Source: Acetofilamentum sp. (GTDB lineage Bacteria > Bacteroidota > Bacteroidia > Bacteroidales > JAADGE01). Taken from it: a stretch of DNA of 62,376 bases. This document shows positions 1 through 62,376 of the stretch, piece by piece. The notes below the pieces were generated by a model. The model saw nothing but the letters and a program-made list of their open reading frames with translations, searched no databases and had not been told where the DNA came from. A program made the position numbers and the translations under genes. The stretch is taken from assembly GCA_020720665.1 (NCBI GenBank), contig DYOF01000002.1, forward strand, positions 1-62,376, read 5' to 3'. How positions within the stretch are numbered: the first letter of the stretch is position 1; each line of letters starts with the position of its first letter.

Positions 1-6
1 TATAAT

Positions 7-1640: not shown

Positions 1641-2567
1641 CTAAATATCTTCTGATTTTTTTGCAAACCGTTCATAATTTACCAACCAAGCGGCTGCATT
1701 TTTAACATATCTTCCCGTTCCTGCATGATCCCATGATATATATAAGCGTGTAAAACCACCGTCTAAGATTAATCGTTTACCGTCTTTTTCATATGTAGCC
1801 GTAACTAAATTGCTTTCATGACCGTAAATTAAAGGTTCAAGTACTTGTTGTTTATCTTGTAATGTAGCAATTGTAACACCTTCATATACATATTCTAAAC
1901 CGGTTGTAATTAAATGTCCGGGTGTGAGTCCGGTGTTTTTTTTGTTGTCATTTAAACCTACGACTTCGTTGCCGGGTAAATTCCCTAACATTTTAACCCC
2001 GATTAAATAATCTGAAACATAGTTAGCATCAGCATAATACGGTTCGTTATCACCCCAAATATAAACCCCTTTTCCGCTGTCGAAAAACGCTTTAATAACT
2101 TTTAAATGTTCTTCATTCAATTTTTGAGTATAACTTGAAATAATCCATAGCTGACATGCTTTTTTTAATGATTTTTCGAGTTCTTCGGGAGAGGGCGGGT
2201 TATCAATCCATCTGTAAACCGAAAAACCTTTTTCTTGTAATGCGGCTTTAGGCAGTGAAAAGTCAAAACCTTCGCCGGTATATAAATGTAGAACGGCAAC
2301 TGTTTCGCCTTGAAAAGCTCCGTCAACGGCTAAATCGTATTGATTTCCCTGAGCATTTCCGTGTCTGTCTGATTCAACTTTAATTTTTTTAACCGAGCCT
2401 GAAAGTGCATCTGTTTGTTCTTCATATACCGCATTTTTTGATGCACATTCATTATAAACTTGTGCCTGTAATTCTCCCATAAAAAAGAAGAACAATAAAA
2501 TAAAAGCAATTACGAAGGTCAAATAAATGCCTATCGTTTGTTTTGAGTTTGATTCGTAGTTTTTCAT
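1641..2567 (-). CDS. Hypothetical membrane-anchored/exported protein
   Basis: 308 aa with an N-terminal hydrophobic anchor (IGIYLTFVIAFILLFFFF). No family recognised. It ends 38 nt upstream of the FGE-domain gene, so the two are probably co-transcribed. Leader element copy A lies directly upstream. Confidence 0.6.
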   Translation of the reverse strand: MKNYESNSKQTIGIYLTFVIAFILLFFFFMGELQAQVYNECASKNAVYEEQTDALSGSVKKIKVESDRHGNAQGNQYDLAVDGAFQGETVAVLHLYTGEGFDFSLPKAALQEKGFSVYRWIDNPPSPEELEKSLKKACQLWIISSYTQKLNEEHLKVIKAFFDSGKGVYIWGDNEPYYADANYVSDYLIGVKMLGNLPGNEVVGLNDNKKNTGLTPGHLITTGLEYVYEGVTIATLQDKQQVLEPLIYGHESNLVTATYEKDGKRLILDGGFTRLYISWDHAGTGRYVKNAAAWLVNYERFAKKSEDI

Positions 2568-2585
2568 GTGTCTAAATATTTTTAA

Positions 2586-2740
2586 CTAATTAATAATCTG
2601 TAAATTGAATGCTTATGCTTATTTATAATCCTTGTTCTTTCCTGCACATAGGAACACTTCACTTTCTGTTAAATGTAATTGAGGTATTCTGTTAGTCATG
2701 CTCCTTTATGTAAAAAACTGTCTTACATGGGTGTTTCATA
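2586..2740 (-). repeat. Conserved ~170-nt leader element, copy A
   Basis: Shares long identical runs with copy B, read on the minus strand: aggagcatgactaacagaatacc (23 nt), tgaagtgttcctatgtgcag (20 nt) and cagattattaatta. The tttagacaNATGAAA end abuts the start codon at 2567. Confidence 0.85.
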
Positions 2741-2905
2741 ATTAATAATTTTCCTTATAGTTTGTAATTATCAGATGTTAAATCCGAAAAAAATCCACAA
2801 GGATTATTAAAATGATTTTAAAAAAAAGAGGAATGATATGATGCGGCAGCTTATAAAATACATATATATCTATTTCAATATAAACATTTTACGATTTTAA
2901 AACCA

Positions 2906-17438: not shown

Positions 17439-19673
17439 ATGGCACAACAAATTTCTAAAATTATTTGGACAAAGATAGATGAAGCTCCGGCTTTGGCAAC
17501 TTATTCTTTACTACCGATTGTAAATTCATATACAAAAACAGCAGGTATTGAAATTGTAACAAAAGATATTTCATTAGCAGGACGAATAATTGCTAATTTT
17601 CCTGAGAAATTAAACGATAATCAAAAAATTAAAGACTACTTAACCGAACTGGGTGAACTAACTCAATTACCTGAAACAAATATCATTAAATTGCCTAATA
17701 TAAGTGCATCCGTACCGCAGTTAAATGAAGCAATTAAAGAATTGAGAGAAAAAGGATACAATGTACCCGAATACCCGGAGAATCCTAAAACAGAAGAAGA
17801 AAAAGAAATTGCCGACCGCTATGCAAAAGTATTGGGAAGTGCCGTAAATCCGGTTTTAAGAGAAGGTAACGCTGACCGAAGAGCTGCAATTTCGGTAAAA
17901 CAACATGCTCAGAAAAATCCGCACAGAATGATGAAGGCATGGAGTAAAGATTCTAAAACTCATATTTCATATATGAATGCCGATGACTTTTACGGAAATG
18001 AAAAATCTGTCATCGTCGATAAAGCCATAGATTTCAAAATTGAATTTACCGATTTAAACGGGAAAAAAACTATCCTAAAAAATAATCTTCATGCAGAAGA
18101 CGGCGAAATATTAGACGGAACTTTTATGAACGTTTCTGCTTTAACCAAATTTTATGAAGAACAAATAAATCTGTCAAAAAAGGAAAATTTATTACTTTCT
18201 CTCCACCTTAAAGCAACAATGATGAAGGTTTCCGACCCCATCATGTTCGGACATGCGGTTAAAGTATATTATAAAACCGTTTTTGAAAAATATAAAACCG
18301 TTTTTGAAAAAATCGGAATAAATCCAAACTACGGCTTAGGTGATGTTTACTCTAAAATCGAAAATTTATCTGATATTGAAAAAAATAATATTGAAAAAGA
18401 TATTGCTGATTTATACAATATCCGAGCCGATTTAGCAATGGTTGACTCTGATAAAGGAATAACCAATTTACATGTACCGAATAATATTATTATTGACGCA
18501 TCGATGCCGGTTGTTATTCGTGACGGAGGTAAAATGTGGAATTCGGAAGGAAAACTGCAAGATACAAACGCAATGATTCCTGACAGATGCTATGCAACAT
18601 TATATCAAACAATGATTAGCGATTGTAAACTAAACGGTGCATTTAATCCGGCAACTATGGGTTCTGTTGCAAACGTAGGTTTGATGGCACAAAAAGCAGA
18701 AGAATACGGCTCACATCCTACAACATTTGAAATTCCTGCTGACGGAAAAGTACAGGTTATTTGTTCCGATAATACAATTTTAATCGAACATAATGTTAGT
18801 AAAGGAGATATTTGGAGAATGTCTCGCGCCAAAGATATTGCCATTCAAGATTGGATTAAATTAGCCGTTACACGTGCCCGAAAAACCAATACTCCGGCTA
18901 TTTTTTGGCTTGATAAAAACAGAGCTCACGATGCACGAATGATTAAAAAAGTTGAACCTTATTTAAAAAACCACAACACAGAAGGTTTAGACATTAAAAT
19001 TATGTCACTCACAGAAGCCATGCAATTTACAATTGACAGAAGCAGAAAGGGTGAAGATACCATTTCGGTTACCGGTAATGTTCTAAGAGACTATTTAACT
19101 GACTTATTTCCCATTTTAGAATTAGGTACAAGTGCAAAAATGTTATCTGTTGTGCCTTTATTAAAAGGCGGCGGATTATTTGAAACCGGTGCCGGAGGTT
19201 CGGCACCAAAACACGTTCAACAATTTCTTGAAGAAGGACATCTTCGTTGGGATTCATTAGGCGAATTTTTAGCTTTGACGGTTTCTTTAGAGCATTCAGC
19301 ATCAAATTTTATTAATACTAAAGCACAAATTCTTGCTGATACGCTTGATGAAGCTATAGGCAAATATCTTGAAAACGGTAAAGCCCCGTCTCGTAAAGCA
19401 GGCGAACTTGATAACAGAGGAACACACTTCTTTTTGGCAAAATATTGGGCAGAAACATTATCTGAGCAAAATAAAGATTTGGAATTAAAAAACAAATTTT
19501 TACCTGTTTCGAATGAATTAAATGCAAACGAAACCCTTATTTTAAAAGAAATAGCAGCCGTTGAAGGCAAAAAAACCGACATCGGAGGATATTATATGCC
19601 CGATGATGAAAAAGCTACAAATGCCATGCGTCCGTCAAATACATTTAATTCAATTATTAATAAGATAATTTAA
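17439..19673 (+). CDS. icd: NADP-dependent isocitrate dehydrogenase, monomeric type
   Basis: 744 aa. The N-terminus ([22 protein letters not shown]) and the ~740-aa length are diagnostic of monomeric IDH. Confidence 0.93.
18270..18311 (+). repeat. Perfect 2 x 21-bp in-frame tandem duplication inside icd
   Basis: tataaaaccgtttttgaaaaa occurs at 18270-18290 and again at 18291-18311. This gives [14 protein letters not shown] in the protein. Confidence 0.95.
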
Positions 19674-23627: not shown

Positions 23628-26600
23628 ATGAATAAAAAAAGGCTTTTTCTGATATTAATTGTTTTGATTGGTTTTAATATTAATTATACATTTTCTCAAT
23701 CTGCCGTAAAATTTACAACCGACAGTATAATTTCAGAACTTAAACTGTTTTACCAAGTTAACAATGCTGATTTAGAAAAAGATAAGAAAGCATTAAAAAA
23801 GGATTCGATATTAAATAATTTAGCAGAATTATGGATTTCAGGCTTAAACGCTAATGAAAAAAAAATCATAAGCGAAATTGCAAATTATCATGTTTCAAGA
23901 AGCTTAGAAAAAGAAACAACACTGATGCAATTTATTCAATCAATTATCTTTTTAAAAACAAAGAATTCAACAAATTTTTCGGCATGGTTAAACATGTTAA
24001 ATTATCTTATAAACTCACAGCAAGTAAGTTCTGCAAAAACAGGACAGTTTATTGAAAGCGTATATTCACTTATTTCTGATAATTATTTGTTAAATAAAGC
24101 CTCATCGAAGTGGAAACTAAAAGAAAATACCGCCTTTAAATTTATTTATTCTCAACCGGAAAATAAATTCAGCATTCAATTTCCTGCTACAAACATAGAA
24201 TCATACAGTATTGACGGAGATACGATAAAAGTGTTGAACACACAAGGCGAGTATGATATTTTTGAATCTCATTGGAAAGGAAAAAACGGAACAATCACTT
24301 GGGAAAAATATGGCATTGCAGCTTCCGACATTAATGTAAAACTATCACACTACAATATAAACATGAATAAGACTGAATTTCATGCGGATTCGGTAGTTTA
24401 TATTAACAATCCGGCATTTAAGGAAAAAATTTTAGGGAAAATTACTGTTTTAGCTTCAAAAAGAGCCTTTACTCAAAGTCAAACACCCGAATTCACATCT
24501 TATCGAAATAATTTTAAAATTAAGAGTAAATATCCGAATATTTATTTTACTTCCGGAATTGAAATGAAAGGAAAAACTTTAAATTACGTAGGGACCGAAA
24601 CCGTACCTGCCGTTGCTGAATACATTTCTAACGGAAAACCTATAATAAAAGCTCGATCATTAAGGTTTTCGGATATTGATGAAACATTAAAATCAAATCA
24701 AACAGATATTAGTATATTTATTGCCGACAATGATTCAATTACACATCCTAATGTTTCATTTTCAGTAAAAAATGAGCAGTTTTCTTTTACAAGAAATTTA
24801 AAAGGAACCGGAAATAGTCCGTTCATGAATTCATACCAAATGATGAATTTTACAGTCGATAATATTGAATGGAACATAAAAGATTCACTCATTCACTTTT
24901 ATTCAAAAGCCGGAAACGAAGCGATGTTTAAATCAACAGATTATTTCACAAAGGAAGATTTTATAAAACAACAGATGTATGAAACAACAAATCCGTTGTT
25001 TGAAATTAATAAATATACAAAAAAAATAGGCTCTGATGAATTTTTCTCGCAGGATTTTGCTTCCTTTATTAAAAAACCGAGTACAACCGTTAATCACCGA
25101 TTAATGGAATTATGGTATGAAGGTTTTTTAGATTACAATCCGAACAATAATTATGTAAAAGTTAAACAAAAACTCTACGATTACATCCAATATTTTTTTG
25201 ATAAAAAAGACTACGACGTTATAAATATCATTTCAAAAGGTAAAGAGCGAACAAAAGATGCCCAATTATTTCCTGTATCGAATGCTGTGTTTGACATAAA
25301 AACAAATCAAATGGCACTTTTCGGAGTTGAACAAATCGTTTTAAACGAACGAAAAAAAGTCGGTATCGTTCCTGCAAACCAAATGATTTTAATCGGACAA
25401 AACAGACAATTGTTTTTTTCAGGTCGTTTAAGAGCCGGATTAGCTGATATTTACGGCAAAAGTTTTGCTTTTAATTATGAAAATTATGAAATTAATACAA
25501 GCAATGCCGACTCGTTAGTCTATCGAATTTGGGACAAAAAAATTTTAAATTCAGAAGAAAAATTATCTGCAAAATTCTTAAATTCAACAATTGAAAATGT
25601 AAGCGGAACGGTTAAAATTGATATTAAAACAAACAAATCCGGTTCAAAAGATAGTGCACAATTTCCGCTTTTTATATGTTCTGATACCTCTTATGTTTAC
25701 TACGATAAAAGAAACAAACAAGGAACAACATACCCGCGTGAGCGTTTTTATTTTAAAAACTATCCGTTTATGCATGACAGTTTATTATATATAACAAAGT
25801 CGCAATTGCTTATACCCGGAATGATGTTTACGGGAGATATTATACCGACTTTTCAAGACACATTAGAAGTTCAGAACGATTATTCTTTAGGTTTTATTCA
25901 CCAAACACCTGACGGCGGATTTCCGCTCTTTAAAGGAAAAGGAACCTTGTCATCTGGAAATAACAATATGAATAGCTTTATCAGGCTAAGCAACAACGGA
26001 TTAGAAGCTAACGGCGTAGCTAAATGGAACAATACAACAATAACAACAAAAGATTTCACTTTATACCCCGACTCACTGACTACTTTAGCCGATGAAATAG
26101 AAATTAGTGAATTTATTAATACCGAAACCTATGCAGAATTTCCGGTAGTTAAAGGAAAATTAGTTTCAACCAGCTGGGATGCTGTAAATGATGTTATTAG
26201 GTATAAAACAACCGGTATAGCAGTTGATATGTATAATGAAAAAGTTCAATTTTCGGGTAACTTTGAATACCGTCCTAAATCTCTGACAGGAAAAGGTCGT
26301 GCAAAAATTCAGGAAGGAACAGTTTCATCGGAGGATTTTGAATTTAACAAAAATTCATTTCTCTCTGAAAAAGCCGACATTAAAATAAATGAAAAAAATT
26401 CTGACACAAAAGACGTTATAATAAAAAACATGAAATCTTTCGTTGATTTAAAATCTGATAAAGCAGTGTTTCAAAAAATTGAAAATGAAGATTCATATGT
26501 ACATTTTGTAACCGACCAATATTTAAGCTATCCGAATCATTTAGTTTGGCATACCGGACAAGGTAAAATTAACCTGAATTACAATATGAGTAAATTCACG

Positions 26601-28292
26601 AATAAACTTTTCTCAAAAGATTCTATTTTGCTTGACAGCACTTATCTTACAGACTATTGCAGATTCGATAAAACTTTGTTTTCATCTTCATACGGCGATT
26701 TAAAATTTGTTTCAATAAAACCTGAACAAGATTCATTGATGTTTTTCGGCAGTCGTGCTAATTATTATACCGGTAACAAAAAAATTGTTGCTATGGATGT
26801 TCAAAAAATTATTGTTGCCGATATTGTTGTAACCCCTAACAGTGAGCTTATTATAAATGAAAACGGTGAAATGGAAAAGCTGTTAAAAACAATGGTTAAG
26901 GCACGAGGAATTCACAACATCAGCGATGTTGATATTAAAATTAACAGCAGCAAAAAATATGTTGCATCGGCAGGAATATATCAATATGAAGATATGAATA
27001 AAAACTTGCAAAACATTAATTTTGATAATATTACCTATGATGAAGCCGCCGGAGCTACCGTTGCACATGGTTTTGTCGATCAATATCAAAAATTCAACCT
27101 CAATCCGTGGTTTAATTATTACGGCGATGTAAATTTTAATGCATCAAAAGACCGACTTCGATTTGAAGGATACGCACGTATAATTCATTCATGTCCTTCA
27201 ATTCCGCAGTGGTTTTATTTTGAATCGGAAATTAATCCGGACAGTATTTACTTACCCCTCGAATCGAAATTATACTCTGATTTAGCTTCAAATAAAGCCC
27301 GAATTTATGCAGATATTATGTCTTCAAAAGACTCGACACATGTTTTTCCTGTATTCTTATCGACCGACCCTTACGGAAATTCAGAATCAATTTTATCTCT
27401 AAGAGACTCTTCGTTTTATGTTACGTACAACGATAACGAAAATAAATACGAAATTACAACATTAGCAAAGTTTAATAACCGAAGCCTTCCGGATGCATAT
27501 TTGGAATTACAAAGAAGCAAATGTATTATTAACGGCGAAGGTCCGTTAAGCCTGTCGGAAACCGTAAAAGTAAATGAGTTTAAAAGTTTCGGAGAATTAC
27601 GTTTTGATACAAATTCTGATGAATTTACAATGGGAACATTAACATATTTAGACTTTTTCTTTGCGAAGAAGCCCTTAGATATTTTGAATGAAAAATTAAT
27701 TTTAAATCCGAATTTAAGTGGTATTCCGTTGGAAAATGACTCCTATAAAAAGCCCATGTATCAAATTATAGGAATTGAAACATGCGATAAAATGCTCAGT
27801 GAAATGTCATTAAATGCCGGAGTACTTAAAAAATTTCCGAAAGAACTTGATAAAACCATAGTTTTTACAAATTTAGCCTTTAAGTGGGATAAAAAATCAA
27901 TATCCTATAAATCAATAGGAAAAATAGGTATTTCCAACATAGGCAATCAAATGATTAATAAATATGTTAACGGATATATTCAAGTAAGAAAACGATTAAA
28001 CGGTGATAAAATATTTATTTATCTTGAAACCGGCGAAAAGGAATGGTTTTTCTTTGCATTTTCCGGCGGTATTTTACGAACCCTTTCTTCTGTAAGTGAA
28101 TACAATCAGGTTATTTCAGATATGAAAACTAAAGATAAGAAAATTAAAACCGATAAAGGAATTTTTAATTATATGCTCACAAATGAAGAAACTAAAAACT
28201 TGTTCATTTATGAATTTACCGGAGTTCATCCTGCTATTGACAACTTTAACGGAAGCACGGAAGACTTGCTTGATGATGAAGAAAATAATTAG
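23628..28292 (+). CDS. Very large exported hypothetical protein (1554 aa)
   Basis: Uninterrupted 4.66-kb ORF with a signal peptide (LFLILIVLIGFNINYTFSQS). I recognised no domain. Confidence 0.8.
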   Translation: MNKKRLFLILIVLIGFNINYTFSQSAVKFTTDSIISELKLFYQVNNADLEKDKKALKKDSILNNLAELWISGLNANEKKIISEIANYHVSRSLEKETTLMQFIQSIIFLKTKNSTNFSAWLNMLNYLINSQQVSSAKTGQFIESVYSLISDNYLLNKASSKWKLKENTAFKFIYSQPENKFSIQFPATNIESYSIDGDTIKVLNTQGEYDIFESHWKGKNGTITWEKYGIAASDINVKLSHYNINMNKTEFHADSVVYINNPAFKEKILGKITVLASKRAFTQSQTPEFTSYRNNFKIKSKYPNIYFTSGIEMKGKTLNYVGTETVPAVAEYISNGKPIIKARSLRFSDIDETLKSNQTDISIFIADNDSITHPNVSFSVKNEQFSFTRNLKGTGNSPFMNSYQMMNFTVDNIEWNIKDSLIHFYSKAGNEAMFKSTDYFTKEDFIKQQMYETTNPLFEINKYTKKIGSDEFFSQDFASFIKKPSTTVNHRLMELWYEGFLDYNPNNNYVKVKQKLYDYIQYFFDKKDYDVINIISKGKERTKDAQLFPVSNAVFDIKTNQMALFGVEQIVLNERKKVGIVPANQMILIGQNRQLFFSGRLRAGLADIYGKSFAFNYENYEINTSNADSLVYRIWDKKILNSEEKLSAKFLNSTIENVSGTVKIDIKTNKSGSKDSAQFPLFICSDTSYVYYDKRNKQGTTYPRERFYFKNYPFMHDSLLYITKSQLLIPGMMFTGDIIPTFQDTLEVQNDYSLGFIHQTPDGGFPLFKGKGTLSSGNNNMNSFIRLSNNGLEANGVAKWNNTTITTKDFTLYPDSLTTLADEIEISEFINTETYAEFPVVKGKLVSTSWDAVNDVIRYKTTGIAVDMYNEKVQFSGNFEYRPKSLTGKGRAKIQEGTVSSEDFEFNKNSFLSEKADIKINEKNSDTKDVIIKNMKSFVDLKSDKAVFQKIENEDSYVHFVTDQYLSYPNHLVWHTGQGKINLNYNMSKFTNKLFSKDSILLDSTYLTDYCRFDKTLFSSSYGDLKFVSIKPEQDSLMFFGSRANYYTGNKKIVAMDVQKIIVADIVVTPNSELIINENGEMEKLLKTMVKARGIHNISDVDIKINSSKKYVASAGIYQYEDMNKNLQNINFDNITYDEAAGATVAHGFVDQYQKFNLNPWFNYYGDVNFNASKDRLRFEGYARIIHSCPSIPQWFYFESEINPDSIYLPLESKLYSDLASNKARIYADIMSSKDSTHVFPVFLSTDPYGNSESILSLRDSSFYVTYNDNENKYEITTLAKFNNRSLPDAYLELQRSKCIINGEGPLSLSETVKVNEFKSFGELRFDTNSDEFTMGTLTYLDFFFAKKPLDILNEKLILNPNLSGIPLENDSYKKPMYQIIGIETCDKMLSEMSLNAGVLKKFPKELDKTIVFTNLAFKWDKKSISYKSIGKIGISNIGNQMINKYVNGYIQVRKRLNGDKIFIYLETGEKEWFFFAFSGGILRTLSSVSEYNQVISDMKTKDKKIKTDKGIFNYMLTNEETKNLFIYEFTGVHPAIDNFNGSTEDLLDDEENN

Positions 28293-50464: not shown

Positions 50465-51250
50465 TTACTTCAACCAACGTCTGAGCCACATTTCGGCTGC
50501 ATAAATCTTCCGAGTGGTCCAACTGTTAATCGGTACATTTAAACCGGTTTTTATTAATAAAGTTCCTTTAGGCTGACCTTCATAAACATTTACCTCAAGA
50601 GTTGAATTTGTGTAATCCGGACTCAAAAAATTGCCGATGACATAATTTGCTTCAAAATTAAAAAACATAAAATTAAAGCCTAAAATTGCCGCTAAATTAC
50701 TTTTTCTAAGCATTTCCTTATAATTTGCAGGCTGAGTTGTAGAGGATGTTGCCGAATAACTTACATTATCGGTTTTACTTAAGAATAAATTATAACTGTA
50801 TGAAACACCTCCGTATAAATACTTTTGACTTTCATAAAACTTTTTTCCGTATTTAATATAAACCGGAACTGTTACCTGCGACACTCGATAAGTTTCTTTT
50901 AATGTATAACTTGGTATTGAAGCTGTATAATAATTTGCAGCAATACCATACATTTTATATTCTAATCCTATACTTATCCCGGCATTATTACTTTTTAAAT
51001 CATGACTATACATTAAACTTCCGTAATAACCCGGTACATAATTAATATTAAAACTCGTATCCGGAAATAATTGTAAATGATCTAGCCCGTTTTTTGATAA
51101 TAACATAAAATTTAATAAAGTATCCGGTTGAGGAGATAAAACGGAATGATTTGCTCCTATTTTTATTGAAAAATAATCATACTCACTATCCCACTGTGAA
51201 AATGAATAAGTAGTGATTAAAATAAATATTATTATTATTGACTTTTTCAT
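50465..51250 (-). CDS. Outer-membrane beta-barrel (porin-family/PorT-like) protein
   Basis: 261 aa with a signal peptide and alternating aromatic/hydrophilic beta-strand pattern (YSYNLF, ANYVIGNF). Confidence 0.55.
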   Translation of the reverse strand: MKKSIIIIFILITTYSFSQWDSEYDYFSIKIGANHSVLSPQPDTLLNFMLLSKNGLDHLQLFPDTSFNINYVPGYYGSLMYSHDLKSNNAGISIGLEYKMYGIAANYYTASIPSYTLKETYRVSQVTVPVYIKYGKKFYESQKYLYGGVSYSYNLFLSKTDNVSYSATSSTTQPANYKEMLRKSNLAAILGFNFMFFNFEANYVIGNFLSPDYTNSTLEVNVYEGQPKGTLLIKTGLNVPINSWTTRKIYAAEMWLRRWLK

Positions 51251-51307: not shown

Positions 51308-52933
51308 TTAAGGCCTGTAGTGCCAAAAATCATTAAAATCTAATTCCGGCACACCTGCCCAACCGCTACCCACATACGCTCTATAGTCATTATCACTTAT
51401 TTTAATGCCTACACCCACTGCTTCATATCTGGGTTTTCCTACCTGTACACCGTCAATTTTCCCGAAATCAGCTCTTTGTTCCCATTGATTGGTGAACGGG
51501 TTATATCTGTAAAAATCAGATAAAGCCTCACCGGAAGAATTTTTACCTAAGCCTACATAGCCCATTTCACCTAATGCAAACCCCACAGCCTCCACACGGG
51601 CTTCGCCCGGAAACGGTGTACGTTGCGTCCAACTCAAATAATCGCCTGTAGTTTGTCGGCACATCCACAAATCATTTTTATATACACCGGCTTCATCTCT
51701 TCCGCATGCAACATAAACATTGCTTCCTAAGGTAAAACAAACGGCTTCGGTTCGTTTACCGCCCGGGAAATTACCAATTTTTGTCCACGTTCCTCTTTCA
51801 TGATATAAACTTTTTTCCGTAGGATCATATTTGTAAACATATTCAACAGGCTCATTGCTGTAATCGGTTGTTCCTAAGGCTACATAGCCTATTCCGTTTA
51901 ATGAAAAAGCAATTGAATTTTCTGTAATAGTTCCGGGAAAATCAGCTCGTGATGTACCTTCTGTAATATTTTCCCATGTTCCCCACTCTCCTAAAGGTTT
52001 GTGTAAAACATCCGTCAGTTCTAATCTGTAAAAATTTACATTACCGGCATCGCCGTCATTGGTAATACCGAGTCCTAAAAATAAATAATCTGATTCTTGA
52101 TTATTTTCTAATTTAATATCTTCAAGAACAAAACAAACTGCATTTGTAAAATTAACCTGCTCTCCTACAGTAAAATTTTTGTACGGGTTATCCCATGAAT
52201 TACTTACCGGGTCGTATCTGTATAGCTCAATTTGATTACTCATAGGGGCTTCATCATGTCCTTGTAATATAAACATATATCCGTTGTATGAAAAAGATGT
52301 TGCACCCCAATAATAATTATCGTCAAAAGCTGCCGGAGTATCGGTCATACCGCCTCCTACCCACAAATCAACCGGGCTTTTTGTATTAATTTCTAAATCT
52401 TTTTGATTGTATGCAATATCTTTATATACCGGTAAACCTCCCACAAAACGACCGGTAACAACGAATGACCGCACATAATAGGTTTCTTCATAATGCAATC
52501 CTAAACTGCTTTGAAATTCTTTTCCTGCAAATAAATCTTCACCGGTTAAAAAACTTTCAGGTGCTTCTGTTCCTTTAAAATGATAAGAAGAATTTTGTTT
52601 TAAACGTTCTAATAAATTTATTTTACTCACAGAATCATATCCGCAAACTACCGGATTTGGATTTTTTGAATAAACATGACCGTATATTAAAATACTGTCT
52701 TTCAACATTCCGTTGTCATATTTTTTTACATAAGTAATATTTTCTTGTATAACAGCATAATTATCAGTAACAATAATTAAACTGTCCGGCGTACCGCTGA
52801 TATATTTGACTTTACCGTCCGGTGTAATAAACGTACCGCCGTCAAACTCTCTCGTAAAGGCATACGGATTCTCATCATATTTACAAGATGATATCAGTAA
52901 AAACGCTAACAGAAAATAAGTAATTTTTTTCAT
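51308..52933 (-). CDS. Kelch-like beta-propeller lipoprotein
   Basis: 541 aa with a lipobox (LISSC). Repeated blades of the form (D/N)(F/L)W.Y.P..N.W....FPG..R..AV.F.....YVGLG. Confidence 0.7.
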   Translation of the reverse strand: MKKITYFLLAFLLISSCKYDENPYAFTREFDGGTFITPDGKVKYISGTPDSLIIVTDNYAVIQENITYVKKYDNGMLKDSILIYGHVYSKNPNPVVCGYDSVSKINLLERLKQNSSYHFKGTEAPESFLTGEDLFAGKEFQSSLGLHYEETYYVRSFVVTGRFVGGLPVYKDIAYNQKDLEINTKSPVDLWVGGGMTDTPAAFDDNYYWGATSFSYNGYMFILQGHDEAPMSNQIELYRYDPVSNSWDNPYKNFTVGEQVNFTNAVCFVLEDIKLENNQESDYLFLGLGITNDGDAGNVNFYRLELTDVLHKPLGEWGTWENITEGTSRADFPGTITENSIAFSLNGIGYVALGTTDYSNEPVEYVYKYDPTEKSLYHERGTWTKIGNFPGGKRTEAVCFTLGSNVYVACGRDEAGVYKNDLWMCRQTTGDYLSWTQRTPFPGEARVEAVGFALGEMGYVGLGKNSSGEALSDFYRYNPFTNQWEQRADFGKIDGVQVGKPRYEAVGVGIKISDNDYRAYVGSGWAGVPELDFNDFWHYRP

Positions 52934-52950
52934 CTGTCTAAAAATTTATA

Positions 52951-53104
52951 ATTAATTAATAATCTGCAAATTGAATTGATATTACTATTAATAATGTTTT
53001 TTTCTCTGCACATAGGAACACTTCAATTATGCACTAAACATAATTACGGTATTCTGTTAGTCATGCTCCTGTGAGCTAAAAATTGTCTTACATTGGTGTT
53101 TTAT
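52951..53104 (-). repeat. Conserved ~170-nt leader element, copy B
   Basis: Collinear with copy A and ends at the Kelch-lipoprotein ATG (52933). See the copy A evidence. Confidence 0.85.
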
Positions 53105-56438: not shown

Positions 56439-57272
56439 ATGAATACTATAATCGATAAACAATATTTTTCTGAAAAAGTGGTAAAACTGACTATTTTGGC
56501 TCCTGATATTGCCAAAAACAGAAAACCCGGAAATTTTGTAATCATAAAAATTGGGGAAAAAGGCGAAAGAATACCTTTAACTATTGCCGGAGCTGATATT
56601 GAAAAAGGGTCTGTTGATTTGGTGGTTCAAATTGTGGGAGTAAGCTCACATAAACTAAGCGCATTAAATATCGGAGATGCCGTAACTGATATTGTCGGTC
56701 CCTTGGGACAAGCCACACATATTGAAAAAGTCGGAACAATTTTGGCTGCCGGAGGCGGCGTTGGTGCTGCACCGCTATTGCCTATTATTGAAGCATTTAA
56801 AAAAGCAGGAAATAAAGTAATTACTGTTTTGGCTGCCCGAAATAAAGACCTTATTATTTTAGAAGATGAAGTCAGAAAACATTCTGATGAAGTAATTATT
56901 ATGACCGACGACGGTTCATACGGCACAAAAGGATTAGTTACTGCCGGAATGGAAGAAGTAATTCAACGAGAAAAAATTGACCTTTCGGTTGTTATCGGAC
57001 CTGCCATAATGATGAAATATGCCGCCATGACTACAAAAAAATACAACATCAATACCATAGCCAGCCTCAATACCATAATGGTTGACGGAACAGGAATGTG
57101 CGGTGCATGCAGAATCACAGTTGACGGAAAAACAAAATTTGTTTGCATTGACGGTCCTGAGTTCGATGCCCACAAAGTAGATTTTGACGAAATGCTTTTA
57201 CGTCTTTCTGCATACAAGGACATGGAAGCCAAGGCATACGAAAAACATATTTCGTGTAAAACACAATCATAA
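56439..57272 (+). CDS. PyrK/NfnA-like FAD/NAD(P)-binding electron-transfer subunit with a [2Fe-2S] site
   Basis: 277 aa. GNFVIIKIGEKGERIPLTI, AAGGGVGAAPL and the C-terminal cluster motif GTGMCGACR. Confidence 0.8.
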   Translation: MNTIIDKQYFSEKVVKLTILAPDIAKNRKPGNFVIIKIGEKGERIPLTIAGADIEKGSVDLVVQIVGVSSHKLSALNIGDAVTDIVGPLGQATHIEKVGTILAAGGGVGAAPLLPIIEAFKKAGNKVITVLAARNKDLIILEDEVRKHSDEVIIMTDDGSYGTKGLVTAGMEEVIQREKIDLSVVIGPAIMMKYAAMTTKKYNINTIASLNTIMVDGTGMCGACRITVDGKTKFVCIDGPEFDAHKVDFDEMLLRLSAYKDMEAKAYEKHISCKTQS

Positions 57273-57282
57273 TTTTTACAAA

Positions 57283-58779
57283 ATGGCTGAGAATCAAACA
57301 GAATATTATAAAATTGAAAGGGCACAAGAATGGCGTGCCGAAATACGAAAAAATATTAAAGTTAAAGACAGAACCGAAATGATTAGGGTTAAAATGCTTG
57401 AACAAGACCCTTTAATCAGAAATAAAAACGGTTTGGAAGTGAACTTAGGCTTAACCGAAGAATTAGCAGTTACAGAAGCTCAAAGATGCATTGATTGTCC
57501 CGACCCGACTTGCATCACAGGTTGCCCTGTAAATATCTATATTCCGAAATTTATTAAAAAAATTGAAATCAGAGATTTTTTAGGCGCCGCACAAGTTCTG
57601 AAAGAAACCAATTCGTTGCCTGCTGTTTGCGGAAGAGTTTGTCCGCAAGAAAAACAATGCGAAAACTCATGCTTTTACACCATAAAACTTAATAAACCGC
57701 CGGTAGCCATCGGATTTTTGGAACGTTTTGCTGCCGACTATGAAAGAAATTCAGGCAAGATAAATATCCCCGAAACTGCTCAAAAAAACAATATAAAAGT
57801 AGCCGGTATCGGCTCCGGACCGGCATCTTTGGCTTGGGCTACCGATATGGCAAGAATGGGTTATGATGTAACGGTTTTTGAAGCCTTACATGAAATAGGG
57901 GGTGTTTTAAAATACGGAATTCCTGAGTTTCGATTGCCCAACAGCATTGTTGATATTGAAATAAACAATCTGAAAAAAATGGGCGTTAAATTCGTAACTA
58001 ATTTTGTAGTAGGCAAAACAGCAAGTTTGGACGATTTGAGAGAACAAGGTTTTCAAGCGTTTTTTGTGGCAAGTGGTGCAGGTCTTCCTCGTTTTATGGA
58101 TATTCCGGGCGAAAATTCAATCAATATTTTCTCTTCAAATGAATATCTTACAAGAATTAATTTAATGGGTGCGGCAAAAGACGATTACGATACACCCGTT
58201 CCCTTCGGAAAAAATGTTGCCGTTATCGGCGGCGGAAATACTGCTATGGATTCCGTAAGAACGGCCAAAAGGCTCGGGGCTGAAAGAGCAATGATTGTTT
58301 ACAGACGTACTCGAAACGAAATGCCCGCAAGAGTTGAAGAAGTTGAACATGCCATTGAAGAACAAATAGAATTTATGAACCTGAACAACCCGGTAAGCTA
58401 CATTGCCGACCAAAAAGGAAGAGTAACTAAAATGGTTCTTCAAAAAATGGTATTGGGCGAACCCGACAGTTCCGGAAGAAGGAGCCCCGTGCCTCTCGAA
58501 GGAAGCGAATACGAAGTAGATGTTGACATAGTGGTGGTTGCAGTGGGCGTTTCTCCTAATCCTTTAATTCCGGCAAGCGTAAAAGGTTTGGAAACTACCA
58601 AATGGGGAACTATAAAAGTTAATGAGCAATTCCAATCCTCCATTGAAGACATTTTTGCAGGCGGTGATATTGTAAGAGGTGGCGCAACCGTTATCTTAGC
58701 CATGGGAGACGGAAGAAAAGCTGCCGAAAATATGGATATTTACATAAAAACAACATTAAAACACAAGTCAAATGATTGA
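57283..58779 (+). CDS. GltD/NfnB-like NADPH-dependent oxidoreductase (glutamate synthase small-subunit family)
   Basis: Starts at MAENQTEYY. Two Fe-S motifs (CIDCPDPTCITGCP, CGRVCPQEKQCENSC) and dinucleotide folds (VAGIGSGPASL, VAVIGGGNTAMD). The upstream extension to 57184 overlaps the previous gene and is rejected. Confidence 0.85.
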   Translation: MAENQTEYYKIERAQEWRAEIRKNIKVKDRTEMIRVKMLEQDPLIRNKNGLEVNLGLTEELAVTEAQRCIDCPDPTCITGCPVNIYIPKFIKKIEIRDFLGAAQVLKETNSLPAVCGRVCPQEKQCENSCFYTIKLNKPPVAIGFLERFAADYERNSGKINIPETAQKNNIKVAGIGSGPASLAWATDMARMGYDVTVFEALHEIGGVLKYGIPEFRLPNSIVDIEINNLKKMGVKFVTNFVVGKTASLDDLREQGFQAFFVASGAGLPRFMDIPGENSINIFSSNEYLTRINLMGAAKDDYDTPVPFGKNVAVIGGGNTAMDSVRTAKRLGAERAMIVYRRTRNEMPARVEEVEHAIEEQIEFMNLNNPVSYIADQKGRVTKMVLQKMVLGEPDSSGRRSPVPLEGSEYEVDVDIVVVAVGVSPNPLIPASVKGLETTKWGTIKVNEQFQSSIEDIFAGGDIVRGGATVILAMGDGRKAAENMDIYIKTTLKHKSND

Positions 58780-59761
58780 TTTATCTGTTCAGTATGCAGG
58801 TTTATTCCTGAAAAACCCCATAATTGCAGCCGCTTCAGGACATACTTCAAGTTTAGAACATTTAATTGAGCTTGAAAAAAACGGAATTGCTGCTGTAGTT
58901 CTTAAATCCTTATTCGAAGAAGAAATTATCAATGAATTTCATAACACTTTAGACGCTGACGACCAATTTCAAAGCAATATCGAATTCTTGGATTATTACG
59001 ATTACGAATTAAAAAAAGAAAACGTAAATCGATACATTAAACTTATCAAAGATGCTAAGCAAAAATTAAATATTCCTGTAATTGCAAGCATTAATTGTGT
59101 GAGTGCCGGCGAATGGACCCCTTATGCCGAGAAATTTGAAGAAGCAGGTGCTGATGCCTTAGAACTGAATATTTTTATTTTGCCGTCTGATAATGCAAAA
59201 ACGTCCATAGATATAGAAAACGATTATTTCAAAATCATAAACAGTATTAAAGAAAAACTGAGTATCCCGATTACCGTTAAAATAAGTCCGTTTTTTACAA
59301 ATGTTTCGGAAATAATTCAAAAAACTTCAAAAACAGGTATTTCCGGCATTGTGTTATTTAATCGCTCATACAGCCCTGACTTTGATATTGAGAAAATGAC
59401 ATTAAACACGTCAAATGTTTTCAGTAGTCCGAACGATTACACCCTACCCTTGCGATTTATTGCAATGAATTCCAAAAAAGTATCGTGCTCGTTAGCTGCA
59501 TCTACAGGCATACACGACGGCAGTGCACTTATTAAAATGTTATTGGCAGGTGCCGATGCCGTTCAAATTGCTTCCTGTATCTATCTGCATGGCAGCACAC
59601 ATATCAACAAAATGCTGGTAGAACTTGAAACTTGGATGAACTCTAAAAACTATTTGAATATTTCGATGTTCAAAGGCAAACTGAGCGGTGAAAATATTGA
59701 AAATCCGGCGGAATTTGAGCGCGTTCAGTTTATGAAGTATTTCAGCAATCATGAAATATAA
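58772..59761 (+). CDS. Dihydroorotate-dehydrogenase-like (class 1 DHOD/DPD domain IV fold) protein
   Basis: 329 aa with a TIM-barrel FMN-enzyme pattern (NPIIAAASG, LELNI, TVKISP, VLFNR). Overlaps the preceding gene by 8 nt. Confidence 0.7.
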   Translation: MIDLSVQYAGLFLKNPIIAAASGHTSSLEHLIELEKNGIAAVVLKSLFEEEIINEFHNTLDADDQFQSNIEFLDYYDYELKKENVNRYIKLIKDAKQKLNIPVIASINCVSAGEWTPYAEKFEEAGADALELNIFILPSDNAKTSIDIENDYFKIINSIKEKLSIPITVKISPFFTNVSEIIQKTSKTGISGIVLFNRSYSPDFDIEKMTLNTSNVFSSPNDYTLPLRFIAMNSKKVSCSLAASTGIHDGSALIKMLLAGADAVQIASCIYLHGSTHINKMLVELETWMNSKNYLNISMFKGKLSGENIENPAEFERVQFMKYFSNHEI

Positions 59762-60124
59762 AACAATTTTTTCGGAATATTATTTTTTGTTTTTTTGTTA
59801 ATCATTGTTCCTTTTATTGCTCAAAATACTCATTCCCTAAAATACAAACAAGCCTTAAGTTTAAAATACAACACTTTAAGCTTAAAACCTTTAAAGTAAT
59901 CCGTGTATGATTTCGGCATCGAATATTTTCCTTTTCATAGTTAAAAAAAATATTTAACGCCTAATAAATATTTTTACCTAAATTTGCCTAAAATGAAGTA
60001 GCATTAGTGTTTGAATTCTGTTTTGAAAAATAATAATTATATTTACAAAAATTTACAAAAAGGAATTATTTAAAACCTATAATTAATTTTCTGAAAATTA
60101 CTGAAATATTTAAAAGGAACGTCT

Positions 60125-61561
60125 TTGGAAATAAAAAACAAAATATTAAACGAATTTTTTAAAATAATACTATTCGGTTTCTCATCATACATCTTGGGTT
60201 TAATACGTTTTTCAATTCCCGGTTTAGAAAGTACTACAAGTGATTTTAGGGAAATACCGCTATTGATAAGTATTTTTCATGTTTCAAATCCGATTTCATT
60301 AATCATAATGAGTTTGATTACTTCATTAGATTTTATAACTCAACATACATTTACTCAAACCTTTATCTCACATGCTTTTGCACTAACAGTATCATGGTAC
60401 ATCTTCAAATTTATTAAAACAAAAAAAAGGTCTTACTACATTTCCGGTTTTATTTGGCTCAGTTATGTGACCATATATTATTTTATTTTTTTAGTTCCCG
60501 CGATTATTATTTCTTATGAAATATCAGATATATATATCGACACTCCGTTTTGGCTCTCATTCCAAAAGTTTATATTTTCACTCCGTTTTGAAATTATTGC
60601 AACAAGTCTTATTACTTCATTATACTTAATACAATTAAAAATAAGGAAAGAACTAATCAAGCAAAAAGATTATTTAGAAACAGCCGTTAGAGAAAGAACC
60701 GATGAACTTGAAAGCGCCAATGAAGAATTAGTATCAATTAATGAAGAATTAATATCGGCAAACGAAACAATGTCAGATAAAAATGAAATTATAAATAAAC
60801 AAAATATAGACTTACAAAACACTTTAAACAATTTAAAAGAAGCACAAATACAACTTCTTCATGCTGAAAAAATGGCTTCCTTAGGAACTTTAACTGCAGG
60901 GGTTGCACATGAAATTAATAATCCGTTAAATTTTATATTGGGTTCCTATCATGCCTTAGAAGAATATTTTAAAAATTACGGAAGTCAAGACACAAAAAAA
61001 ACAACTTTTTTATTGGAGAGTATAAAAACAGGTATTGAAAGAACTTCAGAAATTGTGAAAGGCTTAAATCAATTCAGCAGAAGTAACAAAACCCTTGATG
61101 AAGATTGCGAACTTCAACCAATAATAGAGAACTGTTTGGTGATGTTAAATAACCCCTTCCGACATAGGATAAACATAATTAAAAATTATGACCCTGAAAT
61201 AAATTATATTAAAGGAAACATAGGAAAACTCCATCAAGTTTTTATGAATATCATTTTCAATGCAATTCAAGCAATTGATGATGAAGGAGAAATAATTATA
61301 ACTACTAAAAAAATAAATACGAATGTTCATATTGAAATTTCCGATAACGGTTGCGGAATAGATAAAAACAATTTACCCAAAATTGCCGACCCGTTTTTCA
61401 CAACAAAAGACTCCGGTAAAGGTATCGGATTAGGTTTATCCATTTCATATTCCATTATCAAAGAACATAAAGGAGAAATTTCTTTTGAATCTGAGCTGAA
61501 TAAAGGCACAAAAGTACTGATTGTAATACCTGTTAATTTAAATTATGACCCCAAAAATTAA
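60125..61561 (+). CDS. Membrane sensor histidine kinase
   Basis: 478 aa. Polytopic N-terminus, coiled coil, H-box (AHEINNPLNF), N-box (NAIQA) and G-boxes (DNGCGI, GKGIGLGLS). The TTG start is uncertain. Confidence 0.85.
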   Translation: MEIKNKILNEFFKIILFGFSSYILGLIRFSIPGLESTTSDFREIPLLISIFHVSNPISLIIMSLITSLDFITQHTFTQTFISHAFALTVSWYIFKFIKTKKRSYYISGFIWLSYVTIYYFIFLVPAIIISYEISDIYIDTPFWLSFQKFIFSLRFEIIATSLITSLYLIQLKIRKELIKQKDYLETAVRERTDELESANEELVSINEELISANETMSDKNEIINKQNIDLQNTLNNLKEAQIQLLHAEKMASLGTLTAGVAHEINNPLNFILGSYHALEEYFKNYGSQDTKKTTFLLESIKTGIERTSEIVKGLNQFSRSNKTLDEDCELQPIIENCLVMLNNPFRHRINIIKNYDPEINYIKGNIGKLHQVFMNIIFNAIQAIDDEGEIIITTKKINTNVHIEISDNGCGIDKNNLPKIADPFFTTKDSGKGIGLGLSISYSIIKEHKGEISFESELNKGTKVLIVIPVNLNYDPKN

Positions 61562-61913
61562 AATCTTATACGTAGATGATGAACCTATTAATCTTCAACT
61601 ATTCGAAATAATTTTTAATAGTCAATATGAAATATTAACTGCAAAAAACGGTATAGAAGGACTTTCTGTTTTAGAAAAATCACCCGATATTAAAATTATA
61701 CTAAGTGATATGAAAATGCCGATAATGTCCGGCTTAAATTTCATTCAAAAAGCCCATGAATTATACCCCGATAAAAAATATTTTATAGTAACCGGATTTG
61801 AAGCAACTCCAGAAATTTTAAATGCTGTTGATTCCGAACTGATTGTTAAATATCTAAGTAAACCATTTATTATCAATGAAATAAAAACTGAAATTGCAAA
61901 TGCATTAAAATAA
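61545..61913 (+). CDS. Stand-alone response-regulator receiver protein (CheY-like)
   Basis: 122 aa with LYVDDEP, SDMKMP and SKP. No output domain. Overlaps the kinase gene by 17 nt. Confidence 0.88.
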   Translation: MTPKIKILYVDDEPINLQLFEIIFNSQYEILTAKNGIEGLSVLEKSPDIKIILSDMKMPIMSGLNFIQKAHELYPDKKYFIVTGFEATPEILNAVDSELIVKYLSKPFIINEIKTEIANALK

Positions 61914-62100
61914 GTATCTCAGTTTTTTTCTATAATTCATTTTTATCATTTAAGCTCTGCAACTCTTTTACATAGTATCAACGAACCACAAATAATTAGT
62001 CCTGTTCTGTATTTTAAAAATAATTCAAATATTTAATCTTGTTTACAACAAATATATTTTTAAATTTATATTCTGTATTTTATAATATCTAAATCATATT

Positions 62101-62267
62101 AAACACCCATAATAACAATGTTTTCACACATAGAGCATGGCTGACAGAATTCCATAATTGCGTTTCGTTCAAAAAAAAATATTCTTATGTGCAGGAAAAA
62201 CAAGCAAAATTAATAATGATAAGCATTCAATTAACAAATTCTTAACTAACTATAAAATTTTAAACAG
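62101..62267 (+). repeat. Conserved ~170-nt leader element, copy C
   Basis: Collinear with A and B: aaacacccat, gagcatggctgacagaattcc, ttatgtgcaggaaaaacaag and ataagcattcaatt. It ends in aaacagATG at 62268-62270. Confidence 0.8.
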
Positions 62268-62269
62268 AT

Positions 62270-62376
62270 GAAACACCCATGATAAACAAGTTTAACACAC
62301 AAGGACATGACTAAACAAATCACCTTGCATAATTGCGTAGAGTTTTCAGATGTTCCTATCTGCGGGGAAAAACAAG
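62270..62376 (+). repeat. Conserved leader element, copy D (truncated by the window edge)
   Basis: gaaacacccatg, ggacatgactaaac, cataattgcgt and gttcctatctgcggggaaaaacaag. It starts directly at the ATG that terminates copy C. Confidence 0.75.

What the first reader, a model, noticed from the sequence alone, without database searches (positions are those of the whole stretch)
62099..62376. Head-to-tail tandem copies (C and D): the terminal ATG of one copy is the first codon position of the next
Copy C ends ...TTTTAAACAG-ATG at 62268-62270. Instead of a gene, the sequence continues AAACACCCATGATAA, which is the start of copy D. The resulting ORF is only MKHP-stop. The unit period is 170 nt. Copy A is likewise preceded by ATGAAA, and copies A and B are followed by ATGAAA of the gene. 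The element is therefore bracketed by AT(G/A/T)AAA direct repeats. This could mean the ATGAAA belongs to the element, which would make it a portable promoter, leader and start-codon cassette. It could also be a target-site-like duplication from a mobile past. Copies C and D are more diverged from A and B, and from each other, than A is from B. The tandem pair lies 190 nt downstream of an orphan histidine kinase and CheY-like receiver pair that has no DNA-binding output.
Basis: seen in the sequence. Interest (0 to 1): 0.72.

Follow-up and report, generated by a model that had tools for sequence, protein, structure and literature searches.

The report
Repeated leader inserted at start codons
A 171-base non-coding repeat, found only in this uncultured Bacteroidales species, sits exactly at the start codon of three unrelated envelope-protein genes (twice in a row before one of them) and supplies a new ATG each time. 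This is an unusual but thinly sampled case of a movable gene leader.

Summary
Four copies of a ~171-nt unit lie in the window: A, B, and the head-to-tail pair C-D, period 170 nt. Eight independent assemblies confirm the pair. The array is exactly two units and is followed directly by an 1852-aa alpha-2-macroglobulin gene.

Orthologous loci in relatives (72-86% protein identity) lack the unit at all three sites. Their upstream sequence aligns right up to the native ATG. So the unit is an insertion placed precisely at the start codon, and it ends in a fresh ATG.

It is non-coding and has no Rfam match. It has no terminal inverted repeats, no fold stability beyond shuffles and no covariation. No homologue turned up anywhere else.

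C and D are the most diverged pair (66%), so the pair is not a recent duplication. The 3' half of D exists as two alleles, one identical to C's 3' half. This looks like a gene-conversion tract, and the window ends exactly at its edge.

The native promoter of the macroglobulin gene is conserved upstream of C, and gene A has a conserved ECF-like motif upstream. No unit has a canonical Bacteroidota -7 box. The unit is therefore more likely a transcribed leader than a promoter.

Best reading: a recombination-propagated leader cassette of the "putative mobile promoter" kind. Its function is untested.

The parts
62098..62267 (+). Unit C (170 nt). It starts with the former start codon, now ATT, followed by AAACACC. 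It ends ...TTTTAAACAG.
62268..62376 (+). Unit D, cut by the window end. The full unit is 172 nt in L024 (9829-10000). Its ATG at 62268-62270 is also the terminal ATG of C and opens only MKHP-stop. The window stops at the exact point where two alleles of D's 3' half diverge.
2568..2739 (-). Unit A (172 nt), directly upstream of the ATG (2567..2565) of a conserved 308-aa protein with no Pfam or NCBIfam family. The old ATG at 2739..2737 is kept and opens a 15-codon ORF.
52934..53104 (-). Unit B (171 nt), directly upstream of the ATG (52933..52931) of a 541-aa Kelch-repeat lipoprotein. The old start codon is now ATA (53104..53102).
62039..62068 (+). Native promoter-like motif of the macroglobulin gene: TTG (62039-62041), 19-nt spacer, TAAATTTA (62061-62068). 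It is conserved in two other species, where it lies about 35-45 nt before the ATG. It now sits upstream of unit C.
   Evidence: consensus TTTG/TAnnTTTG from own knowledge of Bacteroidota promoters
62133..62150 (+). Conserved box 2 of unit C (GAGCATGGCTGACAGAAT; GAGCATGACTAACAGAAT in A and B).
62181..62195 (+). Conserved box 3 of unit C (ATTCTTATGTGCAGG; GTTCCTATGTGCAGG in A; GTTCCTATGTGCAGA in B). With the sequence just 5' of box 2 it forms an imperfect long-range inverted repeat.
1641..2567 (-). Gene served by unit A (308 aa, 84-87% identical in relatives). An FGE-sulfatase-domain gene follows it (760-1602).
51308..52933 (-). Gene served by unit B (Kelch-repeat lipoprotein). An outer-membrane beta-barrel gene follows it (50465-51250).

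Best explanation
The ~171-nt unit is a lineage-specific, non-coding dispersed repeat without terminal inverted repeats. It has been copied into the junction between the 5' untranslated region and the coding sequence of at least three unrelated envelope-protein genes or operons. These encode alpha-2-macroglobulin, a Kelch lipoprotein followed by an outer-membrane barrel protein, and a conserved 308-aa protein followed by an FGE-sulfatase-like protein.

Shown:
- Each unit sits exactly at the native start codon.
- Each begins AT(G/A/T)-AAACACC and ends in a conserved, AT-rich ~43-nt stretch plus a new ATG, which is now the gene's start.
- Relatives have empty sites.
- The macroglobulin gene's native promoter motif remains upstream of C, and gene A has a conserved ECF-like motif upstream.
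- Copies exchange segments.

Inferred:
- The unit is transcribed from the native promoters as a long, weakly structured leader, about 200 nt for single copies and about 370 nt for the pair.
- Its AT-rich 3' end acts as the translation-initiation region.
- The conserved boxes are either a shared post-transcriptional control site or sequences needed for propagation.
- Spread occurs by recombination or template switching at the short homology ATGAAA(A/C)A(C/A), which the unit's 5' end shares with the start of many Bacteroidota secreted-protein genes.
- Each insertion recreates that site, so a second, diverged unit could land next to the first. This would produce the head-to-tail pair C-D without a local duplication.
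For: Four copies, against 0 pattern matches in shuffles. An nhmmer profile finds only these copies.

Empty sites exist in relatives at all three loci. Upstream homology runs to the ATG, and removing 172, 171 and 342 nt restores collinearity.

The TTG-N19/20-TAAATTTA motif upstream of C is conserved in three species. GGAWT-N15/16-TCTG upstream of A is conserved in L019 and L021.

This organism uses TAnnTTTG 18-73 nt before start codons, but no unit has an exact box. No terminators are present.

The unit is non-coding. Frames are broken by indels between copies. A concatenated six-frame query of all copies and one 50-aa frame of copy C found no protein.

Invariant columns are clustered (permutation p=0.02). 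The last 43 nt are 70% invariant and boxes 2 and 3 are 61-67% invariant, against 17-35% in the spacers.

C-D2 is the least similar pair, at 66%.

Recombination between copies is visible in two places. The two D alleles differ at 17 sites confined to the last ~80 nt, with 0 differences in the other ~460 nt of the intergenic region, and allele 1 equals C's 3' half. The last 43 aligned columns of D2 match B at 41 of 43, although the 5' parts are far more diverged.

At two loci the gene start has shifted towards the unit's ATGAAACAC. The macroglobulin gene has AAC to CAC, and gene A has GAA to AAA, relative to orthologues.
Against: Only four copies at three loci could be examined. The rest of the genome was out of reach, so start-codon specificity rests on n=3 sites.

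No transcription data exist. An internal promoter cannot be excluded: B and D2 have TCAATTTG and TTAATTTG 32 nt before the ATG, a 5-of-6 match to the consensus.

Absence in relatives could in principle reflect precise loss through the flanking direct repeats.

Recombination on 6-9 nt of homology is inefficient, and no enzyme is identified.

Block-wise conservation fits a host function and a propagation requirement equally well.

The two amino-terminal codon changes could be ordinary drift.
Confidence: 0.5

Rival explanations
1. Portable promoter cassette. Each unit carries its own Bacteroidota promoter in its AT-rich 3' part and drives the downstream gene. Tandem units give two promoters.
For: A and B meet the operational definition of putative mobile promoters: at least 80% identity over at least 50 nt upstream of non-paralogous genes (81% over 77 nt and 83% over 70 nt; PMC3575422). 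B and D2 have TCAATTTG and TTAATTTG 32 nt before the ATG, a typical distance in this genome. They also have TTTG-N18-TAAATTTT 10 nt before the ATG. The 3' 43 nt is the best conserved part.
Against: No unit has an exact TAnnTTTG box, although exact boxes are common upstream of other genes here. In A and C the candidate box is weaker still (TCAATTTA, TCAATTAA). The macroglobulin gene's native promoter is retained and conserved just upstream of C, and gene A has a conserved ECF-like motif upstream. Sigma-70-type matches are at chance level.
Confidence: 0.2
2. Classical non-autonomous transposon (MITE) mobilised by a transposase encoded elsewhere, with ATG or ATGAAA as the target-site duplication.
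For: The unit is small, non-coding, dispersed and lineage-restricted, and relatives have empty sites. Short direct repeats flank each copy.
Against: There are no terminal inverted repeats. Only low-complexity AT-rich matches were found. The same tool readily finds 15-17-nt terminal inverted repeats in an unrelated element pair in relative L021. No subterminal hairpins are conserved between copies. No transposase domain occurs in the window. Insertion exactly at the start codon at three of three loci is not a known transposon preference. The MITE review PMC10969869 never mentions start codons.
Confidence: 0.1
3. Structured cis-regulatory RNA (riboswitch-like leader), used singly or in tandem for a sharper response.
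For: It lies in the 5' leader, and tandem arrangements are known for some riboswitches (own knowledge). A long-range imperfect helix (ACAYA-A-GGAGCAT with RTGTTCC-T-ATGTG) can form in all four units. It pairs in 91.5% of cells, against 28-64% when the partner is slid.
Against: There is no Rfam match even at E<=10. Fold energies are no better than shuffles, with z-scores of +0.6, -1.2 and +2.4. No compensatory changes occur, and the consensus energy is only -3.8 kcal/mol. The unit is absent upstream of the orthologous genes in relatives. The three served genes share no obvious metabolite.
Confidence: 0.07
4. Small-protein gene or type I toxin-antitoxin-like module. This would be either the forward upstream ORF, or a hydrophobic peptide on the reverse strand, antisense to the leader.
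For: The forward ORF is MKHPCKTVFYIKEHD in A. Its frame is also open in B, and a stop codon lies at the same column in all four units. Reverse-strand ORFs start with ATG in A (28 aa), B (26 aa) and D (50 aa) and share LHIGT or QIGT.
Against: The forward ORF has no ATG in B and stops after 4 codons in C and D. Reverse ORFs differ in frame and length, and the one in C stops after 13 codons. A concatenated six-frame query of all copies found no protein among 5.8 billion. One 50-aa frame of copy C found none among 1.84 billion.
Confidence: 0.03
5. Recent local tandem duplication, or an assembly artefact of a single copy.
For: In allele 1 the 3' halves of C and D are identical over 88 nt.
Against: The 5' halves of C and D are strongly diverged, and C-D2 is only 66% identical overall. 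The junction is reproduced in eight independent assemblies, and the two-unit array in six. The exact stretches shared between C and D outside the converted tract are too short (about 9-14 nt) to confuse an assembler.
Confidence: 0.02

Closest known systems
Putative mobile promoters (Matus-Garcia, Nijveen and van Passel 2012; PMC3575422)
   Same: Homologous non-coding sequence upstream of unrelated genes within one genome. It is not associated with a known insertion sequence or Rfam family, and the mobilisation route is unknown. Units A and B pass the published threshold of at least 80% identity over at least 50 nt.
   Different: That class is defined operationally on positions -150 to -50 and says nothing about boundaries. 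Here both boundaries fall at the start codon, the unit supplies the ATG, empty sites are documented, two diverged units are stacked, and a promoter role looks unlikely.
Correia elements of Neisseria and ERIC repeats of enterobacteria (PMC10969869; PMC3575422)
   Same: Units of about 100-170 nt, dispersed, lying just upstream of genes, co-transcribed with them and able to alter expression.
   Different: Those elements are palindromic, with terminal inverted repeats. Correia elements duplicate TA. They fold into long hairpins and are not tied to the start codon. This unit has no inverted termini and folds no better than shuffled sequence.
Integron cassette arrays and other site-specific insertions that recreate their target site (own knowledge)
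   Same: Each insertion regenerates the attachment sequence, so diverged units can stack head to tail at one site.
   Different: There is no attC-like structure, no integrase nearby and no coding cassette. The shared core is only ATGAAA(A/C)A(C/A). This is an analogy of outcome, not a demonstrated mechanism.
Tandem riboswitches (own knowledge)
   Same: Two related leader units in series before one gene.
   Different: There is no conserved structure, no covariation, no Rfam family, and no conservation upstream of orthologous genes.

Membership tests
MITE (miniature inverted-repeat transposable element) | Terminal inverted repeats at the two ends | tested here: not met
   The inverted-repeat search on all units and flanks gives only AT-rich low-complexity pairs, none at the termini. 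The same tool finds 15-17-nt termini in an unrelated element pair in L021.
MITE (miniature inverted-repeat transposable element) | Target-site duplication of fixed length and varied sequence | tested here: inconclusive
   The flanking direct repeats are always AT(G/A/T)AAA-like. The AAACAC part is carried by the unit, so at most ATG or ATGAAA could be a duplication.
MITE (miniature inverted-repeat transposable element) | Small, non-coding, several dispersed copies, empty sites in relatives | tested here: met
   Four copies of ~171 nt at three loci, no conserved ORF, and empty orthologous sites.
MITE (miniature inverted-repeat transposable element) | Parent element or transposase that shares the ends | not testable with these tools
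   No transposase domain occurs in the window. The rest of the genome could not be fetched.
Putative mobile promoter (PMC3575422) | At least 80% identity over at least 50 nt upstream of genes whose coding sequences are not paralogous | tested here: met
   A versus B: 81% over 77 nt and 83% over 70 nt. The downstream proteins are unrelated.
Putative mobile promoter (PMC3575422) | Actual promoter activity | not testable with these tools
   Motif evidence is weak. No unit has an exact TAnnTTTG box. The macroglobulin gene's native promoter is retained upstream of C, and gene A has a conserved ECF-like motif upstream.
Riboswitch or structured cis-regulatory RNA | Match to a curated RNA family | tested here: not met
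   Rfam 15: 0 matches at gathering score in the window. Nothing in the units at E<=10.
Riboswitch or structured cis-regulatory RNA | Conserved secondary structure supported by covariation and by stability | tested here: not met
   z-scores of +0.6, -1.2 and +2.4. No pair changes on both sides, and the consensus energy is -3.8 kcal/mol. Only four sequences were available, so power is low.
Riboswitch or structured cis-regulatory RNA | Conserved upstream of orthologous genes across species | tested here: not met
   Absent upstream of orthologues in L015, L016, L018, L019 and L021.
IS200/IS605-derived small elements | Conserved subterminal hairpins at both ends; insertion 3' of a fixed tetra- or pentanucleotide without duplication | tested here: not met
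   No hairpin is conserved between copies near either end. The 5' flank is AT(G/A/T), which could be a target, but the start codon is resupplied at the 3' end.
Minisatellite or recent tandem duplication | Near-identical head-to-tail units with copy-number variation between strains | tested here: not met
   The units are 66% identical. Six assemblies all carry two units.

The most novel reading that the evidence does not exclude
The unit is a new kind of site-specific mobile leader. It targets the ATGAAA start of secreted-protein genes, regenerates that site on insertion so that diverged units can stack like cassettes, and rewires translation or mRNA control of envelope genes. It would be driven by a recombination system not yet recognised, or by host microhomology-mediated template switching.
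Probability: 0.2. Interest if true: 0.75.

Novelty: new variant of a known kind. Interest (0 to 1): 0.45.

Why it matters
Repeated upstream sequences shared by unrelated genes have been catalogued in bulk as putative mobile promoters. How they move and where exactly they land is mostly unknown.

Here the boundaries can be read to the nucleotide because empty sites exist in relatives. The insert sits at the start codon, replaces it with its own ATG, leaves the native promoter motif upstream of the macroglobulin gene in place, can stack, and swaps segments with its relatives.

If the rest of the genome shows the same rule, this would be a clean natural example of leader or start-codon cassettes spreading among genes in a phylum that does not use Shine-Dalgarno initiation. 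It would also be a tractable system for asking how 5' leaders are exchanged.

If only these few copies exist, it is a minor lineage-specific curiosity.

Tried and rejected
- Rfam search at gathering score on the window, and at E<=10 on the extended locus: no match in the units.
- Pattern scans. The scan of 185,579 species-representative genomes gave 7 chance hits in Firmicutes and Vibrio. The JGI/ENA metagenome contigs gave 2 chance hits, which I inspected and found unrelated. IMG/VR gave 0. The patterns were strict, so diverged relatives could have been missed.
- blastn of unit B against plasmids and phages: no match.
- An nhmmer profile of A-D against about 190 kb from relatives found nothing credible.
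- A concatenated six-frame peptide query of all copies against 5.8 billion proteins found no hit. A 50-aa frame of unit C against 1.84 billion representatives found none. So no further copies could be reached through spurious ORF calls.
- I tried to reach other contigs of the same species. The 90%-identity clusters of ten neighbouring or relatives' proteins held no further usable members.
- Sigma-70 and terminator scans gave chance-level promoters and no terminators.
- Plain global alignments of the filled against the empty loci were uninformative in this AT-rich DNA. I replaced them with virtual-deletion alignments.
- Rejected readings: a 9-bp target-site duplication (it would need the same CAC to arise independently at three sites), coding potential on either strand, a group I or II intron (wrong size and boundaries; judged from own knowledge), and a functional link to the adjacent kinase/receiver pair (not syntenic in relatives).

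Full report
**Observation**

The sequence at 62098-62376 is as described. Unit C starts ATT-AAACACCCATAAT at 62098 and ends TTTTAAACAG at 62267. ATG follows at 62268-62270, and the text continues AAACACCCATGATAA, which is the start of unit D. That ATG opens only MKHP-stop. The AAACACC motif recurs at 62101 and 62271, a period of 170 nt.

Two further copies lie on the minus strand. Unit A is at 2568-2739 and unit B at 52934-53104. A pattern built from three conserved boxes hits these four places only, and none in 100 shuffles. Tandem Repeats Finder misses C-D because the units are too diverged. Pairwise identity is 79% for A-B and 66-71% for the other pairs. C-D is the lowest.

**Beyond the window**

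The receiver protein encoded at 61545-61913 is found on other public contigs. Cluster look-ups led to more assemblies of the same species. The C-D junction is present in eight independent assemblies. Six of them span the whole array, and each has exactly two units in a 526-nt intergenic region. An 1852-aa alpha-2-macroglobulin gene follows directly and starts ATGAAACACAAAAAA. The arrangement is therefore not an assembly artefact, and a gene does follow.

The 3' half of D exists in two forms.
- In L001 and L014 it is identical to the 3' half of C over 88 nt.
- In L004 and L024-L026 it is a distinct sequence resembling A and B.

The 17 differences are confined to the last ~80 nt. The other ~460 nt of the intergenic region do not differ at all. 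This looks like a gene-conversion tract between neighbouring units. The window ends at exactly the base where the two forms diverge, which probably explains why its contig stops there.

**The units are insertions at the start codon**

Homologues of the macroglobulin and of the 308-aa protein downstream of A were found in related Bacteroidales and Bacteroidota genomes at 72-87% identity. I fetched their loci. None carries the unit, either at the three orthologous sites or anywhere in about 190 kb.

Deleting 172 nt (A), 171 nt (B) and 342 nt (C+D) from the present species gives sequences collinear with the relatives. Upstream homology runs right up to the relatives' ATG (raw sequence). The upstream AT(G/A/T) of each unit therefore sits where the native start codon was. 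It is still ATG in A and D, and has decayed to ATA in B and ATT in C.

The AAACAC that follows must belong to the unit, because the native second and third codons differ between the three genes (GAAAAC, AAAAAA, AAAAAC). This rules out a 9-bp target duplication. At most ATG or ATGAAA could be one.

**What it is not**

- It has no Rfam match, even at E<=10.
- Single units fold no better than shuffled sequence, with z-scores of +0.6, -1.2 and +2.4.
- One long-range imperfect helix, between the sequence 5' of box 2 and box 3, can form in all four units. It pairs in 91.5% of cells against 28-64% in slid controls. It shows no compensatory change, and the consensus energy is -3.8 kcal/mol. With four sequences this is not evidence for an RNA structure.
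- No frame is conserved on either strand. A concatenated six-frame peptide query of all copies and one 50-aa frame of unit C matched no protein in very large collections.
- There are no terminal inverted repeats. The same tool readily detects them in an unrelated element pair in a relative.
- No transposase or integrase domain is encoded in the window.
- No terminators are present, and sigma-70-type promoter matches are at chance level.

**Promoter or leader?**

The organism uses the canonical Bacteroidota -7 box TAnnTTTG (consensus from own knowledge). Exact boxes lie 18-73 nt before many start codons in the window. No unit has an exact box. The best candidates are TCAATTTG (B) and TTAATTTG (D, second allele), 32 nt before the ATG. 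A and C are weaker.

The macroglobulin gene's own promoter-like motif, TTG-N19/20-TAAATTTA, is conserved in three species. In this species it lies just upstream of unit C, at 62039-62068. Gene A has a conserved GGAWT-N15/16-TCTG motif, resembling extracytoplasmic-function sigma promoters, upstream of unit A.

The simplest reading is that the units are transcribed from the native promoters as long leaders. This is inferred, not shown.

**Conservation and exchange**

Invariant columns are clustered (permutation p=0.02).

| Region of the unit | Invariant columns |
|---|---|
| First 13 nt | 85% |
| Box 2 | 61% |
| Box 3 | 67% |
| Last 43 nt before the ATG | 70% |
| Spacers | 17-35% |

(All.)

The last 43 aligned columns of D2 match B at 41 of 43, although their 5' parts are far more diverged. 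Together with the two D alleles, this shows that copies exchange segments by recombination. The alternative is that the 3' end is under strong constraint.

At two loci the gene's first codons have shifted towards the unit's ATGAAACAC, relative to orthologues. The changes are AAC to CAC in the macroglobulin gene and GAA to AAA in gene A. This is what crossovers within a short shared core would produce, but the numbers are tiny.

**Most likely explanation**

The unit is a lineage-specific leader cassette that spreads by recombination or template switching at the short homology ATGAAA(A/C)A(C/A). Its 5' end shares this sequence with the starts of many secreted-protein genes. Each insertion recreates the site, so a second, diverged unit can land beside the first. 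This explains why the tandem neighbours are the least similar pair.

Whether the conserved boxes serve the host or the unit's own propagation cannot be decided here. A host role could be, for example, a shared post-transcriptional control site on three envelope operons. I put about 0.5 on this overall picture. The alternatives are about 0.2 for an internal promoter, 0.1 for a conventional transposon derivative, and less for a structured RNA, a small protein or a recent duplication.

**Comparison with known systems**

The closest described category is the putative mobile promoter (PMC3575422). Units A and B meet its operational threshold. That category does not specify boundaries or mechanism.

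Correia and ERIC elements are similar in size and position but are palindromic (PMC10969869, PMC3575422). A recent review of prokaryotic MITEs does not mention start codons at all.

I found no family member outside this species with the strict patterns used, nor among plasmids or phages.

**Kinase and receiver**

The pair is real, and the receiver is a stand-alone 122-aa domain. In relatives the macroglobulin gene is preceded by a peptidase M1 gene instead. The adjacency is therefore specific to this lineage, and nothing links the pair to the units.

**Limits**

Only four copies at three loci were accessible. The collections that could be scanned by pattern do not contain this species. Attempts to reach other contigs of its genome failed. 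The start-codon rule, the copy number in the genome and any function remain to be tested.

Noticed in passing
L021 9380-9604 and 9694-9912 (relative, ENA ERZ26872899): Upstream of the orthologue of gene A, this relative carries two ~225-nt elements with 15-17-nt terminal inverted repeats (TTAACCCGCATAATTCA / TGAATAATGCGGGTTAA). They are spaced 311 nt apart, and each has a long internal hairpin. One has a weak, sub-threshold Flavo-1 RNA match (22.5 bits against a gathering score of 42). This looks like a classical MITE pair at the same locus, unrelated to the unit studied here.
   Followed up: partly
window 2757-2790 (minus strand), with L019 and L021 upstream of gene A orthologues: A conserved GGAWT-N15/16-TCTG motif lies upstream of the 308-aa gene in three species. 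It resembles extracytoplasmic-function sigma promoters rather than the TAnnTTTG type.
   Followed up: partly
window 62376 (right end): The contig ends at the exact base where two population alleles of unit D diverge. This suggests that both alleles were present in the source sample.
   Followed up: yes
window 1-6; L027 12562-12600; L028, L029 ends: All assemblies of this species break shortly after the FGE-sulfatase-domain gene (760-1602) or the adjacent DUF302 gene (7-447). This hints at a repeat or strain-variable region just beyond the left end of the window.
   Followed up: no
window 18270-18311: A perfect 21-nt tandem duplication (TATAAAACCGTTTTTGAAAAA, two copies) lies inside the monomeric isocitrate dehydrogenase gene (17439-19673). 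It would give an in-frame 7-aa repeat.
   Followed up: no
window 23628-28292: A 1554-aa ORF has no Pfam domain at E<=0.001.
   Followed up: no
L024 16182-17908 (GCA_973317445.1): A type I restriction-modification methylase gene (HsdM) lies downstream of the macroglobulin gene in the one assembly that extends that far. The other assemblies end before it. The region may vary between strains.
   Followed up: no
window 56439-61913 compared with L015 and L016: Between the conserved 323-aa gene downstream of dnaJ and the macroglobulin gene, this species has three dihydroorotate-dehydrogenase-related genes plus the kinase/receiver pair. In relatives a peptidase M1 gene directly precedes the macroglobulin gene. 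The macroglobulin promoter motif is kept.
   Followed up: partly
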